Part shown: positions 47,001 through 53,000 of the stretch, in pieces
How positions within the stretch are numbered: position 1 is the stretch's first letter
Layout of the letters: the number at the start of each line of letters is the position of its first letter
Source of the DNA: Mytilus edulis
Taxonomy: Eukaryota
DNA: 64,000 nt
Reading direction: 5' to 3'
NCBI RefSeq assembly: GCF_963676685.1
Contig: NC_092351.1
Span: 22,878,001 to 22,942,000 of the forward strand
Position numbers: made by a program

Positions 47001-50000
47001 TTTAACAGTTTTATGTGATGTGAAGCATGTTGGGAGAGGGTCGAGCGTTCACAAATATAATTTACTCCGTTGACAAAGTTGTAGATCATATATACTTTCA
47101 TGTAATTTTTTTTGCATTTTCAACATCAATTTACATTGTCAATTTGATTTGTATCGTTACCTTGTAGTTGTATCACACATATTATGACTGTTGCATCGTA
47201 TTAGGTCATATCAAAAGGTTGAGAACTTTCAGCTTTGTTTTGGTGATTGCAAGCATTCTAGTCCAGTCAATCTAGCATAAATTTGACCCTAACCCGAAAG
47301 TAATTGCAACAGAAGGTTTAAAGTTTCTTTAGATAAGTAAGTTTCTGAAAAAATATAATATACAGATAAAAACAATTCCAAATTTTCATATTATTTTTTC
47401 AAAATGGTTACAAAGCTTCAAATTTGCAATTTCTTTAAAGAAAAATGCTCGAAAAAAAATAAAACTACCCATAACACTTCGGTTTTGTACATTTCATGAG
47501 CAGAAGATTATATTATTTAGTAAAATACAAATTTATTACCCCATCAAAGTATCATACATTACATAAATTTCGAGGAAAACAACGAAAACCTGACCACAAA
47601 AGACTAATTTTTGAAAGAACTATCTCCCCTTCCAATGTTAATTTCTTAATTGTTAAAAATGCTGATTTTGAGTTTTCCTCAAGTTAGATTTAATGGGACT
47701 TTTTTTCTGTGTATATAAAGGGCATAATGCTGTAGATTAGAACTAAAACATTTTCTGTTGAATTAGTTTGAGGTTAAATCTTAGTTTGACTGGACTATTC
47801 TTTGACGTGGTTGTATTACTGTAATTTCATTTATTTTCATTGGCTACTTATGTTCGTGGATATTACATTTCGTGGTTGATAAATCTACAGTATTTAATTT
47901 TGATTGCTGTGACATTTTGTTGTTTAATATATCGATATAACAGAGTTGGGTGCTTTTCACTGAAATGATTTTCATTTTACGTTACGTAATGTATCTTTTT
48001 GTTAATTCACTGATACGTTTAACCATGGAATTTCGTTAGTAACTATATTGTAACATGTAGCTTTATTCATTGCTGTATTGTTTAGTGTATGACCGCTTTT
48101 TCAAATTTCTACAAGAAGAAATATTAGGGTTAACCTTCTGTAGAAATATTAATAGAAAGAAAATTTTAAATAGCAATTATACACAACAAATAAAGATCTG
48201 CATATGAGCTAATTGTCTAGATCTACAAATGTAGAAGTAAATTCTAAATGTTTAATCAGGCTTTTGTTTCTTGTCATTCTCACATTTACGAATATATACA
48301 AAAAACATGAAACATAAACTCATCAATTGAGTACACAATACTCTCGTTTCGTCTGCAAAACACTCATCCGTGACAAAAAAATATATAGTTCTTTTAAATA
48401 CATATCTCCAGTCACAAAACAGTCCAAAATATCTGGAAACCAATGCCAAATAGAATAACTAATAATATTCCTGTAGAGAGAAGGAAATATCAATATTGAA
48501 TTTTGAATTCGTAGTTAGTAACTTTCCGTGATCATTTAGTTTTCTAAAACTTTTTCAAATATCAATGGTTGATGTTTTTCACATCACAATTTACATTACT
48601 GCAGTAGCATTATGTTTATCAAACTATCATTGCTAGTTTTTTTAAACATGAATTTTATACAATTAACAAACCGGTTTTAGTGGGGTTCGTGTTGCTCAGT
48701 TTTCTATGTTGTGTTTTTTGTACTGCTGTCTTTCTTTTGGTCTTGTCTCTTTTTTTTGCCATGGCTTTGTCAGTTTTTTTTTCGACTTATGAGTTTGAAT
48801 GTCCCTTTGATATTTTTCGCTCCTTAAGCCTGCATGTATCATGGCATTATTTTGTTTGAGTAATCCTCACATTTACATAGTTACCAGTGCTATAATCATT
48901 TGGTATTTAACGCTGTCTGTTCTGCTGTAAGACATGTGTATGTGTGTGTTATAACTTATTTTTTTGTAATATTATTTAAAACCTACTGGTTGTATGTGAT
49001 CTAGTTAACAAATGAAGATATTTAACTTCATTTGTAGAATAATTCATGTGATTCCGTTAGAGAATAAGTACCTTCGCTGTTGGAAAAGGAGCCATTCACC
49101 TGCAAACAACTGTAACCACCCTTTTTAAAACCTAATCCAGGTAGGAACTGGCACTGAAATAAAGTTGTAATTTGCCATGAAATACGACTTTAAAATATAC
49201 ATGTATGATGTATATTTATTAAAAAAAAGACAGCTATTTCTTTTAAATTAGTATGAAAGGGATAAAAGGTTGTTGTACAAAATTCAAATTAGAATTAAAT
49301 AAGAAAATTTCCGTTCTCCCTAAACTTTTATGACAGGTCGTTCCTTTGTTTTGTGAAATTACATAACAATTACTTATTTTTCCACAAAAAAGAGGAAAAA
49401 GTCAAAAAGAACACCAAGGGAACACAAACATTTAAAGAAATACTAAATACACCACGATAAAAAAAAAAGAAAACGAAAACGACAAACAGTACTCTACAAA
49501 AACTTCAAAAAACAAAACGAATGAACGACAATTAGGAACTCACCAAATTCGTGAATTACCTCAGGTGATAGAGTATCTGTTCAGACATTTATAGACCATA
49601 TTTTGTAACAAGTCAGTAAAATAACATGAAATTTTATTTTATTCTGATATATCGATCTGACTTGCACACAAAAAGTAATTTAGGACATTTCAATAGTAAG
49701 TAGATGAGGTGAACAAAATATCAAATTAATGTCATGTTTTAATTTACCTTTGTATCGGGAAGACATTCGTGAGTGCCTCTGAATACATTTAGGAATATAT
49801 CAATAGATTCATCATCGTCATCAAGGTCACATTGATTGATATCAGTATCGTTTAAGTTCATATCTATGAATGCAACACCTCTAAAAACAAAATTGAAAAA
49901 ATCAGTTCCCTTTTTCTGAACGTGCATAGTTAACTAAAGGTGCGAGTGAAATAGAATATGAATCATGTTGCTTCAAAACTTATATAGCACATGTTGAATT

Positions 50001-53000
50001 AAACTAGTCCTCCTTTATTGCTACCCGATTAAACATCGGCCTTTACTGTATATAAGCATATAACGTACAACTGAGGAGACTAGTGGATCAGGAACTGCTT
50101 ACCCTTCCAGAGTACATAATTTCATGTGTTGGGTTTGGTTAAATTCGTTACTTTTTATTTTAGTTTTTTTTGTGAAATGTTTTGTAAACTGTTACAAACA
50201 TTTTGTTTCGTATTGATTTGTTAACAACATATCCGGTTTTTTTTTCAGATTAAGTCTTTAAAAAGAAAAAGGAAAAATTATTAAAAATGTGTACTGGAAA
50301 TTTAAATATGTCTTACTTGAATGCGGGCTTTCCAGTGGCATCTTGTCCAAATATTGGCACAGAAAATGTAACCAACCAACTATCACTAAATCCACAATCA
50401 AAATAAGGTTGACTCCAGTATCCATCTTCTTGTTTTGCAAAATACATCACGATATTCTCATCTTGAATGTCCGTGCTGTCATTCCTATTTCATAAGATTA
50501 TGAATAAGAAAATTATACGGGTCAATTAAACGTATTAAACAGTTATTGTTACCGGTACTATAGTTGCATGGGTTTTAGATAACTTCTTTCAATGTGAAAT
50601 GTCAAAAAGACATTAAGTAAGGAATGTAATTAGAGACTGTGATATGGATGATAAATCTTTCATAGTAACTGTAAAATTCTACCCAAATGTTTATCTATTT
50701 AGATTTGGGGTCGATGCGGAGCTTACTATATTGTTTCGTTGTTTTACATCTTAAAGTCTTTGATTTTATTTTTGTGTCGTTTATTAGTTTCATCATTGAC
50801 CTAATCCCGCATTCTCCTTTATTCGGTGTGACTGTATTTATACAGAAGATAAAAGTTACACTATAATGCAAACTTTCAAGATATAATGATGCAAAACCCT
50901 ATTTTTTTCTGATGTTTTATTCGTTTGCAGATTAATGCAATTGTTTGAGAAAGTAGCAAATTGTTACAAAGTAAAACTTAAATGTCAAAATTAAGAAAAA
51001 AGTTTACAAATAATCCAAATCCTAAGAAAATGTTTAAAACAATTGTTTAGTGCAAATTCACATCAGTATAAAAGTTATTTACTAACCTCTGGTGTCTTTC
51101 CGTTAGAATTGACGATGCATTATCCCACTTTCTTGACTCTAAGTTGTAATACCACTCTGAATCAACTGATGTTTGATACACATAAGAAAGCGATAAATCG
51201 TAAAGGCGAATAACTCCATGTTTATAATAAGCATAAGGTGCAAAAGCTTTGTATCTTGAAAATACATCTGGCTCAAACGCAAGACCAGAACTGAAAACTT
51301 GTGGTGATCCTGTCATAACGACATTTCTTGCCAAATTAAAGAATGTTAAATCTGGAATAGACTCCAATATTCCTTTGTTCTGATAAATTATTGTCGACAT
51401 GTAATTAGCATTATAAATAGCTAAGTTTGCATATCCATTCCACAGAGTGAAATCTAGGGTTAAGTAAAGATTAGACGCAGAGCACATGTCTGTATGAGTA
51501 TTTCCAATGATATTGAGAGCAGTGATTGCATCTGACTTACCACCTTTTACGAATAGTATAAGTCCATGCATCAAAATAAAACATATAAAGAAAAAAACCG
51601 AAACTCTACATGTTGTGTTCATCATCGACTGCATACACTTTCCTAAAAAAAAAGGTAAAATAAGTTATCTGGAAAACGAACTGTTTTCAATACACAATTT
51701 GTTTTATAACAACAAAGATAAGACAGATTTGTTTTTGTAATAATAAGGTAATGAAATGAATGACGCTATATGAACACTATTTTTTACATGCTTACAGAAC
51801 TAAAGAATTACTTGCTGGTATTAAAAAGCGATTAAAACTACTTTTGCTGTTCCACAACTTTATGAATACTTGACTGATAGAAGTCACCAAAGCAAACGTG
51901 CAATCGATAAAAGTAAAAAAACAACAACAAAGTCAGTGTAAAAGTAAGAGAACAAACAAGTTATTGTAAACTTACAAGACCAGTCAAGTCAGTCTTAAAG
52001 TAACAGAACAAAAGACGTCAATGTAAAATAACATAACAAACAAGTGAATACAAATGTAGCAGAATACACAAGTCAATTAACGTATAACAGAACAGTCCAG
52101 CCAGTGTAAAAATAACAGAACAGCCAGGTACGAAGTCAGTGTAAAAATAAAACAACAAAAAAAGGTAACAGTAGTATACCGCTGTTCAAAACTCGTAAAT
52201 CTATGAACAAAAACCAAAATCGGGGTAACAAACCAAAACTGAGGGAAACGCATTAGATATAAGAGGAGAACAACGACACTACATTAAAATGTAACACACA
52301 CAGAAACGGACTAAGCATTAGACAAAATCCGATGAGAATAACAAATATAACATCAAAACCAAATACATGAATTTGGGATAGCAAAAGTACCGTGACACGT
52401 CTAATAGTAATGTGAATTCACACTCAAATATAGGAGGAAACAAACGACACAACGGAAACACTACGTAAAAATGTTACACACACAGAAACTAACTATGATA
52501 TAACAATGGCCATTTTCCTGACTTGGTACAGGACATTTTTAAAGAAAACAATGGTAGGTTGAACCTGGTTTTGTGGCATGCCAAACCTTAGACAATGTTG
52601 AATATAACATTAAAAAATAAAATCACAAAAATACTGAACTTAGAAAATGACAACATAATATTACAGGACTACAATACAAATAAATAGAACATATTAGGCA
52701 AAGAAACACATGAATAATAGATAACAAAAGGCATCAGGTTTAAAATTCAATACGCCAAAAACGCGCCTCGTCCACACAAGACTTACCAGTGACGCCCAGA
52801 TATAAAAGTTCGAAAGTAAAAAAAAAGTACAAAGTTGTACAGCACTGAGGATCAAAAGTTGAAAAAGATTGTGCCAAATACGGCTAGGGTTTTCTGTTTG
52901 TGATAAAAACATCCTTATTATTTAGAACAATTTATGCTATTGCAAACAGTAAATTTTATCAAATGAATATAAAACATATACATGATAAAACTGAACAAAA

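What the first reader, a model, noticed from the sequence alone, without database searches (positions are those of the whole stretch)
47289..51642. Apparently soluble GPR158-type Cache-domain protein with no 7TM receptor half
Seen: four frame-consistent exons encode a signal peptide and the GPR158/GPR179 ectodomain motif series. The match breaks inside the EGF-like module: GGYSCLQ replaces the usual YxCxC. All three continuations I can build stop within about 30 residues: read-through to 49028, or splicing from 49100 or 49072 to the acceptor at 47344. An AATAAA lies at 46786-46791, a convergent gene follows, and I see no 7TM-like exons in the 46 kb downstream. Established: vertebrate GPR158 is a class C GPCR whose Cache domain binds glycine. 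Inference: this is a secreted, stand-alone Cache ligand-binding protein (carrier, decoy or co-receptor for amino acids or osmolytes) derived from a GPCR by truncation.
Basis: partly seen in the sequence, partly recalled or inferred. Interest (0 to 1): 0.8.

Follow-up and report, generated by a model that had tools for sequence, protein, structure and literature searches.

The report
Receptor-less GPR158-type Cache ectodomain gene
A small intact-looking gene in an AT-rich invertebrate genome encodes only the ligand-binding outer part of a glycine-receptor-type GPCR, with no membrane-spanning receptor half nearby, and its product may be secreted or lipid-anchored rather than simply soluble.

Summary
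On the minus strand, four exons in consistent phase (51642-51087, 50484-50317, 49880-49748, 49153-49100) encode an N-terminal hydrophobic signal. They also give colinear Pfam matches to the Cache/PDC domain and to GPR158_179_EC, positions 2-38 then 39-70 of 96. The match stops inside the EGF-like cysteine-rich module.

None of the 430 minus-strand ORFs of 30 aa or more downstream matches 7tm_3. Four ependymin-like genes fill that space, so the gene most likely ends between 44.7 and 49.1 kb.

It has a TACTAAC branch point and a strong pyrimidine tract, and the intron would be about 0.6 kb like the other three.
- From the stronger donor (49100) the protein ends three residues later and would be soluble.
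- From the weaker donor (49072) it ends in an 18-residue hydrophobic tail behind an N/S/G-rich spacer, which looks like a GPI-anchor signal.

"Soluble" is therefore unproven. Expression, orthologues and ligand could not be tested because the eukaryote sequence databases were closed. A dead truncated duplicate remains a serious rival.

The parts
51087..51642 (-). Exon A. Acceptor at 51643/51642, start codon at 51634-51632. It encodes an N-terminal hydrophobic signal (about residues 11-29) and the first part of the Cache/PDC domain. Donor gttagt follows 51087 (phase 2).
   Evidence: Pfam PF22673 E 3.4e-4 (profile 11-62 of 113). PDB 3lic_A bacterial sensor E 0.0094. Atlas nearest clusters are eukaryotic and carry Cache/PDC.
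50317..50484 (-). Exon B. End of the Cache core (the GYWSQPYFDCG...WLVTFSVP motif).
   Evidence: Pfam PF22673 E 9.6e-7 (29.7 bits, above the cut-off of 27) and PF22572 E 1.6e-5 (positions 2-38 of 96). PDB: 3lic_A E 0.019; human GPR158 chains 7ewp, 7ewl and 7she at E 0.32-0.75, residues 264-300.
49748..49880 (-). Exon C. Start of the cysteine-rich EGF-like module: an acidic D-rich loop and two Cys.
   Evidence: Pfam PF22572 GPR158_179_EC E 2.8e-6, 28.3 bits against a cut-off of 28.1, positions 39-70 of 96. Splice contexts.
49100..49153 (-). Exon D, short form: 18 codons with two Cys, ending CLQ. Donor gtgaat, phase 0.
   Evidence: No Pfam or PDB match of its own. Assigned from splice sites, phase and motif.
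49072..49099 (-). Optional extension of exon D (VNGSFSNSE plus 1 nt) if the weaker donor gtactt after 49072 is used (phase 1). It is N/S/G-rich and could serve as a GPI omega/spacer region.
   Evidence: donor contexts; frame open as far as 49028.
48514..48520 (-). TACTAAC branch-point consensus, 44-50 nt upstream of the proposed exon E.
   Evidence: Only 2 of the 99 acceptor-like sites on both strands of the window have TACTAAC at -55 to -15, and this is one of them.
48412..48470 (-). Coding part of the proposed terminal exon E. In phase 0 it reads EYY then stop. In phase 1 it reads a junction Gly, then an 18-residue hydrophobic tail (48468-48415), then the stop at 48414-48412.
   Evidence: Tails this hydrophobic end 9 of 2443 stop-terminated ORFs in the window.
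48062..48067 (-). Nearest minus-strand AATAAA downstream of exon E. A possible poly(A) signal, which would give a 3' UTR of about 0.35 kb.
   Evidence: The motif is no more frequent than chance in this window, so this is weak evidence.
44545..44730 (+). Last coding exon of the convergent ependymin-like gene. It bounds the Cache gene on its 3' side.
   Evidence: Pfam Ependymin E 0.056, profile 105-128 of 128. tblastn to the paralogous exons at 30759-30911, 20049-20114 and 7583-7648, E 5e-8 to 2e-4.

Best explanation
This is a compact five-exon gene on the minus strand, about 51642 to about 48045. Its product is only the extracellular sensor part of a GPR158/GPR179 (mGlyR)-type class C receptor.

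The product has:
- an N-terminal secretion signal;
- a single Cache/PDC domain with one Cys pair;
- the first part of the EGF-like cysteine-rich linker, carrying four of its ten Cys.

It has no 7TM domain and no cytoplasmic tail. The gene ends in a terminal exon that starts at 48470.

Which donor is used decides the C-terminus:
- Donor 49100 (closer to consensus) ends the protein three residues after the truncated EGF module, giving a soluble protein of about 304 codons.
- Donor 49072 adds an N/S/G-rich spacer and an 18-residue hydrophobic C-terminus, giving about 329 codons. This looks like a GPI-attachment signal, so that form would be tethered to the outer face of the cell membrane.

Inferred mechanism, not shown here: the protein binds a small ligand or an extracellular partner through its Cache pocket, as mGlyR binds glycine or taurine. 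With no 7TM it cannot signal itself. It would act as a binder, buffer, decoy or co-receptor at the cell surface or in the extracellular fluid.
For: Shown by tools:
- Pfam matches are colinear across three separate exons on one strand: PF22673 in A and B, PF22572 positions 2-38 in B and 39-70 in C. Splice phases agree.
- The four homologous exons contain no stop or frameshift.
- Introns are 602, 436 and 594 nt. The proposed fourth would be 629 or 601 nt.
- The acceptor at 48470 is one of only 3 strong acceptors in 44731-49060. It is one of 2 of 99 acceptor-like sites in the window with a TACTAAC branch point.
- A hydrophobic tail of this strength occurs at the end of 9 of 2443 ORFs (0.37%) in the window, this one included.
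- 0 of 430 downstream minus-strand ORFs of 30 aa or more match 7tm_3.
- No CxCxxG[FYW] or similar Cys-rich remnant lies downstream.
- Four ependymin-like genes occupy 7.5-44.7 kb on both strands.
- The window holds no paralogue of the Cache exons.

Read from the sequence:
- Six Cys follow the signal, an even number: two in the Cache part and four in the cysteine-rich part.
- N-x-S/T sequons occur in exons A, B and C (sequences printed).

From papers:
- GPR179 has one disulfide in the Cache domain and five in the cysteine-rich domain (PMC11437087, passages).
- In GPR158 the EGF-like part has three disulfides and the D loop two (PMC8611064, passages).
- With the canonical EGF pairing (recalled), the four Cys kept here form two complete pairs, and the next Cys position is Gln.
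Against: - There is no transcript evidence of any kind, so every splice site is a prediction.
- The donor needed for the hydrophobic tail (AAG|gtactt) departs from consensus at +4 and +5, and I noticed the tail post hoc.
- Two of the four accepted acceptors (exons B and D) fail my own "strong acceptor" filter.
- Exon D has no database support.
- No orthologue, dN/dS or expression data could be obtained, so an intact-looking but dead recent duplicate is not excluded.
- The per-exon matches to human GPR158 itself are weak (E 0.32-0.75). The best PDB match is a bacterial Cache sensor.
- The fold could not be confirmed: exon A alone gave pLDDT 37.5.
- Pfam 7tm_3 may be insensitive to short exons of a divergent 7TM, and ORFs under 30 aa were not scanned.
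Confidence: 0.55

Rival explanations
1. This is a dead 5' fragment. A partial duplication copied the first four exons of a GPR158-like receptor gene, and the break fell in the intron after exon D. The copy is untranscribed or makes a product with no function. The apparent terminal exon and hydrophobic tail are chance features of T-rich non-coding DNA.
For: - Homology stops exactly at an exon boundary inside a domain (motif read by eye).
- The window is rich in transposon fragments: RVT_1 and DUF6451 matches and repeated elements.
- AATAAA and hydrophobic ORFs arise easily in 30% GC sequence.
- No expression or conservation evidence was available.
Against: - All four exons are open with intact canonical splice sites and a start codon.
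- The Cys count is even, and the Cys that would be left unpaired is absent (with PMC8611064 passages).
- A very strong branch point and acceptor lie at an intron-like distance.
- A tail this hydrophobic ends only 0.37% of ORFs in the window.
- A very recent duplicate would show most of these features too.
Confidence: 0.25
2. This is a full-length receptor gene. Its remaining exons (the rest of the cysteine-rich domain, the 7TM and the tail) lie beyond coordinate 1 of the window across an intron of more than 49 kb, or were lost or misplaced in the assembly.
For: - Vertebrate GPR158 genes have very long introns (recalled, not checked here).
- The window ends 49 kb downstream of exon D.
- Genes nested inside long introns do occur.
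Against: - The first three introns are only 0.4-0.6 kb.
- Four independent ependymin-like genes on both strands, plus transposon fragments, lie in between.
- No 7tm_3 or Cys-rich exon occurs in 49 kb.
- The window has no N and therefore no assembly gap.
Confidence: 0.12
3. The protein is a type II membrane protein. The 19-residue N-terminal hydrophobic stretch is not cleaved and acts as a signal anchor, so the Cache domain is membrane-tethered by its N-terminus whatever the 3' end is.
For: - The hydrophobic stretch (about residues 11-29) is long for a signal-peptide core.
- It is followed by K-G-G-K (sequence).
Against: - Plausible cleavage motifs with a small residue at -1 and -3 follow it, by inspection.
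- Homologous receptors use a cleaved signal (recalled).
- No predictor was run.
Confidence: 0.08

Closest known systems
GPR158 (mGlyR) and GPR179, class C GPCRs with a Cache plus EGF-like ectodomain
   Same: - Same ectodomain family: Pfam GPR158_179_EC positions 2-70 and the Cache/PDC domain.
- Weak direct match to human GPR158 residues 264-300.
- One Cys pair in the Cache part, as reported for GPR179 (PMC11437087).
- An acidic loop at the start of the EGF-like part, where GPR158 has D314/D316 (PMC8611064).
   Different: - Only 4 of the 10 cysteine-rich-domain Cys are present.
- No D loop, no 7TM and no RGS7-binding cytoplasmic helices were found in the window.
- It therefore cannot signal as these receptors do.
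Bacterial single-Cache/PDC sensor domains, such as PDB 3lic "Sensor protein"
   Same: Best solved-structure sequence match for exons A and B (E 0.0094 and 0.019). Same Pfam family, PF22673.
   Different: The bacterial domains sit between two transmembrane helices of kinases or chemoreceptors. This gene has introns, a eukaryotic signal sequence and an EGF-like extension.
Receptor ectodomains released as stand-alone proteins: secreted Frizzled-related proteins and molluscan acetylcholine-binding protein (both recalled, not checked here)
   Same: Same logic: the ligand-binding outer domain of a membrane receptor family encoded without the membrane part, acting as a decoy or buffer.
   Different: Unrelated folds and families. 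Those are experimentally established, whereas nothing functional is known here.
Calcium-channel alpha2delta subunits and CACHD1, metazoan Cache-domain proteins that are not GPCRs
   Same: They are extracellular, membrane-tethered Cache proteins of animals. Alpha2delta binds amino acids through its Cache domains (PMC8915833 and PMC9901441, search listing and abstracts only). GPI anchoring of alpha2delta is recalled.
   Different: Those carry double Cache (dCache_1) and VWA domains and are far larger. No VWA domain or second Cache module is present here.

Membership tests
GPR158/GPR179 (mGlyR-type) class C GPCR | Cache ectodomain of the GPR158_179_EC type | tested here: met
   PF22572 is matched colinearly by exon B (positions 2-38, 25.8 bits) and exon C (positions 39-70, 28.3 bits, cut-off 28.1). 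PF22673 is matched by exons A and B. Exons were searched one at a time; the joined model was not searched.
GPR158/GPR179 (mGlyR-type) class C GPCR | Complete cysteine-rich linker: EGF-like part with three disulfides plus a D loop with two, ten Cys in all (PMC8611064, PMC11437087) | tested here: not met
   Only four Cys follow the Cache part (exons C and D). Profile positions 71-96 are not matched. No Cys-rich remnant lies downstream.
GPR158/GPR179 (mGlyR-type) class C GPCR | Seven-transmembrane domain (Pfam 7tm_3) | tested here: not met
   0 of 430 minus-strand stop-to-stop ORFs of 30 aa or more between 62 and 48971 match 7tm_3 at E up to about 0.5. 0 of 16 candidates picked by hand before that matched. 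Limits: the test covers the window only, and short or divergent exons could be missed.
GPR158/GPR179 (mGlyR-type) class C GPCR | Cytoplasmic coiled-coil that recruits RGS7-Gbeta5 | not tested
No long open frame exists downstream that could hold it.
Cache/PDC sensor superfamily | Sequence match to a Cache/PDC profile above the curated cut-off | tested here: met
   Exon B matches PF22673 at 29.7 bits, above the cut-off of 27. Exon A scores 21.5 bits, below it. 3lic_A E 0.0094 and 0.019. Atlas: a eukaryotic PF22673 cluster at 0.90 with 175 shared features.
Cache/PDC sensor superfamily | PDC alpha/beta fold | tested here: inconclusive
AlphaFold2 on exon A alone, without an alignment, gave pLDDT 37.5 and pTM 0.37. 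No fold search was run on it.
GPI-anchored surface proteins | N-terminal signal, plus a C-terminal signal made of small omega residues, a polar spacer of about 6-8 residues and a 15-20 residue hydrophobic end with no cytoplasmic residues (rule recalled) | tested here: inconclusive
   The geometry is met by eye if donor 49072 is joined to acceptor 48470. It depends on a weak donor. No GPI or signal predictor was available and there are no transcripts.
Processed or decayed pseudogene | Frameshifts, in-frame stops or lost splice sites in the homologous exons | tested here: not met
   Exons A-D are open. All four acceptors are AG and all three internal donors are GT, with matching phases. Introns are present, so it is not a retrocopy.

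The most novel reading that the evidence does not exclude
Bivalve-type animals make a free or GPI-tethered version of the metabotropic glycine receptor's Cache sensor. Alternative use of two donors 28 nt apart would switch it between a secreted and a membrane-anchored form. It would capture glycine, taurine or related osmolytes and amino acids outside the cell. It would then work as a buffer, decoy or co-receptor, the Cache-domain counterpart of secreted Frizzled-related proteins or acetylcholine-binding protein.
Probability: 0.2. Interest if true: 0.7.

Novelty: new variant of a known kind. Interest (0 to 1): 0.45.

Why it matters
The GPR158/179 Cache plus EGF ectodomain is described as a module of metazoan GPCRs (PMC12716839, passages). 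My four literature searches found no report of it without its 7TM. These were word searches of open-access text only, and supplements were closed.

A receptor-less copy that is expressed and conserved would matter in three ways:
- It would show that this sensor can work on its own.
- It would give a small, easily expressed protein for finding ligands of this poorly understood Cache family.
- It would add a case of receptor ectodomains becoming extracellular binders.

If it is only a truncated duplicate, it is an ordinary by-product of a repeat-rich genome.

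Tried and rejected
- Whole-frame Pfam scan: I tried to scan 10-kb translations of the downstream region. I did not change the genetic code to get round this and used stop-to-stop ORFs instead.
- Hand-picked ORFs: 16 hydrophobic or long ORFs gave no 7tm_3 match. All 430 ORFs of 30 aa or more were then scanned as three alignment containers, A1-A3. 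The only non-noise families were RVT_1, DUF6451 and Ependymin. In one search the list was cut at 25 families, the weakest shown at E 0.47.
- PDB with exons C and D: no relevant match.
- Structure: exon A alone gave pLDDT 37.5. The model was unusable, so no fold search was run and the second structure job was not spent.
- The fold and whole-protein scores therefore stay unchecked.
- Atlas: the nearest clusters are eukaryotic (mostly arthropod) proteins of 266-268 aa, one with PF22673 in 83% of its members. This is a lead that short Cache-only proteins may exist elsewhere, but those sequences could be fragments. I did not count it as evidence.
- AATAAA was rejected as evidence: 209 observed against 207 expected.
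- The paper on glycine binding by GPR158 (PMC10751545) is not held, so pocket residues could not be mapped. Only S172 of mGlyR is named in the passages I saw (PMC11437087).
- Search one search was badly framed and returned unrelated bivalve papers.
- Not checked because closed: the search for homologous proteins, the search of protein representatives, metagenome and viral contig collections, and paper supplements. Genome contigs (prokaryotes only) and the phage, plasmid and E. coli collections were not used because they cannot hold orthologues. As a result there is no orthologue, dN/dS or species identification.
- The window has no N. I do not take it for human: it is about 31% GC and carries ependymin-like gene clusters.
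This report is the same text with that field added.

Full report
**What is there.** The feature lies on the minus strand. Reading 46500-52000, listing stop-to-stop frames and printing splice contexts gives four exons.
- Exon A: acceptor ...ttttttttag| at 51642, ATG at 51634, ends at 51087 before gttagt.
- Exon B: 50484-50317, donor gtaaga.
- Exon C: 49880-49748, donor gtaaat.
- Exon D: 49153-49100, donor gtgaat.

From the ATG the coding lengths are 548, 168, 133 and 54 nt. The phases fit (2, then 1+2, then 1+0, then 0) and the total is 301 codons. Introns are 602, 436 and 594 nt. The window has no N and is about 30-37% GC throughout. I do not take it for human sequence.

- Pfam: exon A matches the Cache-type PF22673 (MCP-like_PDC_1) at E 3.4e-4, profile positions 11-62.
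- Exon B matches PF22673 at E 9.6e-7 (29.7 bits, cut-off 27) and PF22572 (GPR158/179 extracellular domain) at E 1.6e-5, positions 2-38 of 96.
- Exon C matches PF22572 at E 2.8e-6 (28.3 bits, cut-off 28.1), positions 39-70 of 96.

Three separate exons on one strand hit adjacent parts of the same profiles, in order and in matching phase. That cannot reasonably be chance.

Against solved structures, the best hit for exons A and B is a bacterial Cache sensor (3lic_A, E 0.0094 and 0.019). Human GPR158 chains appear only weakly, at E 0.32-0.75 for exon B residues 22-55 against residues 264-300. Exon C finds nothing relevant. Exon D finds nothing at all, so it is supported only by its acceptor, its phase and its Cys/Gly pattern. 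The protein atlas places exon A next to eukaryotic, mostly arthropod, clusters. One of these carries PF22673 in 83% of its members, with a score of 0.90 and 175 shared features.

**Where the homology stops.**
- GPR158's linker is an EGF-like part with three disulfides followed by a D loop with two. Acidic residues D314/D316 sit in the first loop (PMC8611064, passages).
- GPR179 has one disulfide in the Cache domain and five in the cysteine-rich domain (PMC11437087, passages).
- Here, after the signal, there are two Cys in the Cache part (exons A and B) and four in exons C and D, with an acidic run in exon C.
- With the canonical EGF pairing 1-3, 2-4, 5-6 (recalled), the four Cys make two complete pairs. 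The position of the fifth Cys is Gln and the sixth is absent.
- The product would therefore have no orphan Cys. That fits a protein that folds, although a break at an exon boundary could give the same picture.

**Is there a receptor half?**
- I scanned 16 hand-picked ORFs. I then scanned all 430 minus-strand stop-to-stop ORFs of 30 aa or more between 62 and 48971 in three batches.
- 0 of 430 matched 7tm_3. The only real families were reverse transcriptase, DUF6451 and Ependymin.
- No CxCxxG-type or other Cys-rich remnant lies downstream.
- The window holds no second copy of the Cache exons.
- The downstream space is occupied by four ependymin-like genes. Two are on the minus strand (about 7.5-8.9 kb and 20.0-21.5 kb) and two on the plus strand (about 27.5-30.9 kb and 41.0-44.7 kb). 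Pfam gives E 4e-8 and 1.3e-6 for two of them, and tblastn links all four.
- The plus-strand gene that ends at 44730 converges on the Cache gene. The Cache gene should therefore end between 44.7 and 49.1 kb, unless it spans four nested genes.

**The 3' end.**
- Only three strong acceptors lie in 44731-49060. The first is at 48470 (ttccttctctctacag|), with TACTAAC 44-50 nt upstream.
- Across both strands of the window, 99 sites pass the same acceptor filter and only 2 have TACTAAC.
- The intron would be 629 or 601 nt, like the other three.
- From donor 49100 (CAG|gtgaat, which like exon C's donor has A at +5) the frame reads three residues and stops. That gives a soluble protein.
- From donor 49072 (AAG|gtactt, weaker, off consensus at +4 and +5) the frame first passes the VNGSFSNSE segment. 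In exon E it then reads an 18-residue hydrophobic stretch that runs straight into a stop at 48414-48412.
- Such tails (mean hydropathy 2.3 or more, no charged residue) end 9 of 2443 ORFs in the window, or 0.37%.
- Small residues such as N-G-S, a six-residue polar spacer and a hydrophobic end with nothing after it together make the textbook GPI-attachment signal (rule recalled; no predictor available).

I noticed this after the fact, and it needs the weaker donor. I therefore treat the anchored form as about as likely as not, and I do not regard "soluble" as established. Two accepted acceptors (exons B and D) fail my strong-acceptor filter, so weaker sites cannot be excluded. No open frame in this interval exceeds 70 aa and none matches any family.

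AATAAA has no evidential value here: 209 copies are observed against 207 expected.

**How it probably works.**
- Shown: an intact-looking gene for a Cache ectodomain with a truncated EGF-like stub, and no 7TM nearby.
- Inferred: it enters the secretory pathway. This rests on the N-terminal hydrophobic stretch and on N-x-S/T sequons in exons A-C, read by eye.
- Inferred: it ends up either free or GPI-tethered.
- Inferred: it binds a small molecule or matrix partner through the Cache pocket. mGlyR binds glycine and taurine (PMC12834959, passages), and GPR179 binds pikachurin (PMC11437087, passages).
- Without a membrane-spanning or cytoplasmic part it could only act as a binder, decoy or co-receptor.
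- Which ligand it binds is unknown. Even GPR179 does not share glycine with GPR158 (PMC11437087), so glycine binding should not be assumed.

**Rivals.**
- A truncated, functionless duplicate (0.25). This fits the break at an exon boundary and the repeat-rich surroundings. The intact frames, sites and Cys parity, and the strong terminal exon, argue against it only mildly.
- A full-length receptor with exons beyond the window (0.12). It would need an intron of more than 49 kb holding four genes, after three introns of about 0.5 kb.
- An N-terminal signal anchor (0.08). This could not be tested.

**Comparison and novelty.** By sequence this belongs to the GPR158/179 ectodomain family. It fails two defining features of the receptors: the complete cysteine-rich linker and the 7TM. 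It should not be called a GPR158 receptor.

In function it resembles receptor ectodomains that became free binders, such as secreted Frizzled-related proteins and molluscan acetylcholine-binding protein (both recalled). If it is anchored, it resembles membrane-tethered Cache proteins such as alpha2delta.

The Cache/EGF module is described as a GPCR module of metazoans (PMC12716839). My searches found no report of a receptor-less form, but they cover open text only and supplements were closed. I rate it a new variant of a known kind, of moderate interest, pending transcripts and orthologues.

**What stayed unchecked.** Orthologues, dN/dS, expression, species identity, signal and GPI predictions, the fold of the whole protein and pocket residues. 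The remaining collections hold no animal genomes. The key glycine-binding paper is not held.

Noticed in passing
window 7496-8870 (-), 19962-21519 (-), 27507-30911 (+), 41017-44730 (+): A cluster of four ependymin-related (EPDR-like) genes on both strands. Pfam Ependymin gives E 4.1e-8 and 1.3e-6 for the two minus-strand last exons. The two minus-strand copies are about 75% identical in that exon, and the plus-strand copies are more divergent.
   Followed up: partly
window 10309-11449 (-) and 35551-38179 (-): Long open frames with reverse-transcriptase-like sequence. Pfam RVT_1 (E 7.8e-6 and 8.2e-5) and DUF6451 were matched somewhere in the batches that contain them. These look like retrotransposon fragments, with similar sequence in both places.
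   Followed up: partly
window 9780-10059 (-), 29763-30008 (-), 36311-36606 (-): A short element recurs three times. One frame reads ATRRVPHV...LPEHL and is followed by a hydrophobic, Cys-rich stretch. It is probably a dispersed repeat associated with the retroelements.
   Followed up: no
window 51913-52162: A degenerate 28-nt minisatellite (6 copies, 61-71% identity to the reference copy) lies 0.3 kb upstream of exon A, where the gene's promoter or 5' exon would be expected.
   Followed up: no
window 55271-58002 (-): Several copies of a repeat of about 0.5-1 kb give near-identical frames (...CCLFSTLKLTFPIYSCTG..., ...NSLTPRYYI.ASRDFYH.E...). GC content and GC skew rise here (56-58 kb: GC 0.366, skew 0.164).
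   Followed up: no
window 250-1624 (-): Tandemly repeated units of about 500 bp at the window start give the repeated frames LLKWSTDHFGHVDLF... and MLWFLSYKPKTAFYP.... A frame at 1797-2135 (+) reads a run of Ser-Leu repeats, which suggests a simple-sequence repeat.
   Followed up: no
window 52001-54000: AT skew is strongly positive (0.314) in this 2-kb bin, unlike the rest of the window. This suggests an A-rich strand-asymmetric repeat upstream of the gene.
   Followed up: no
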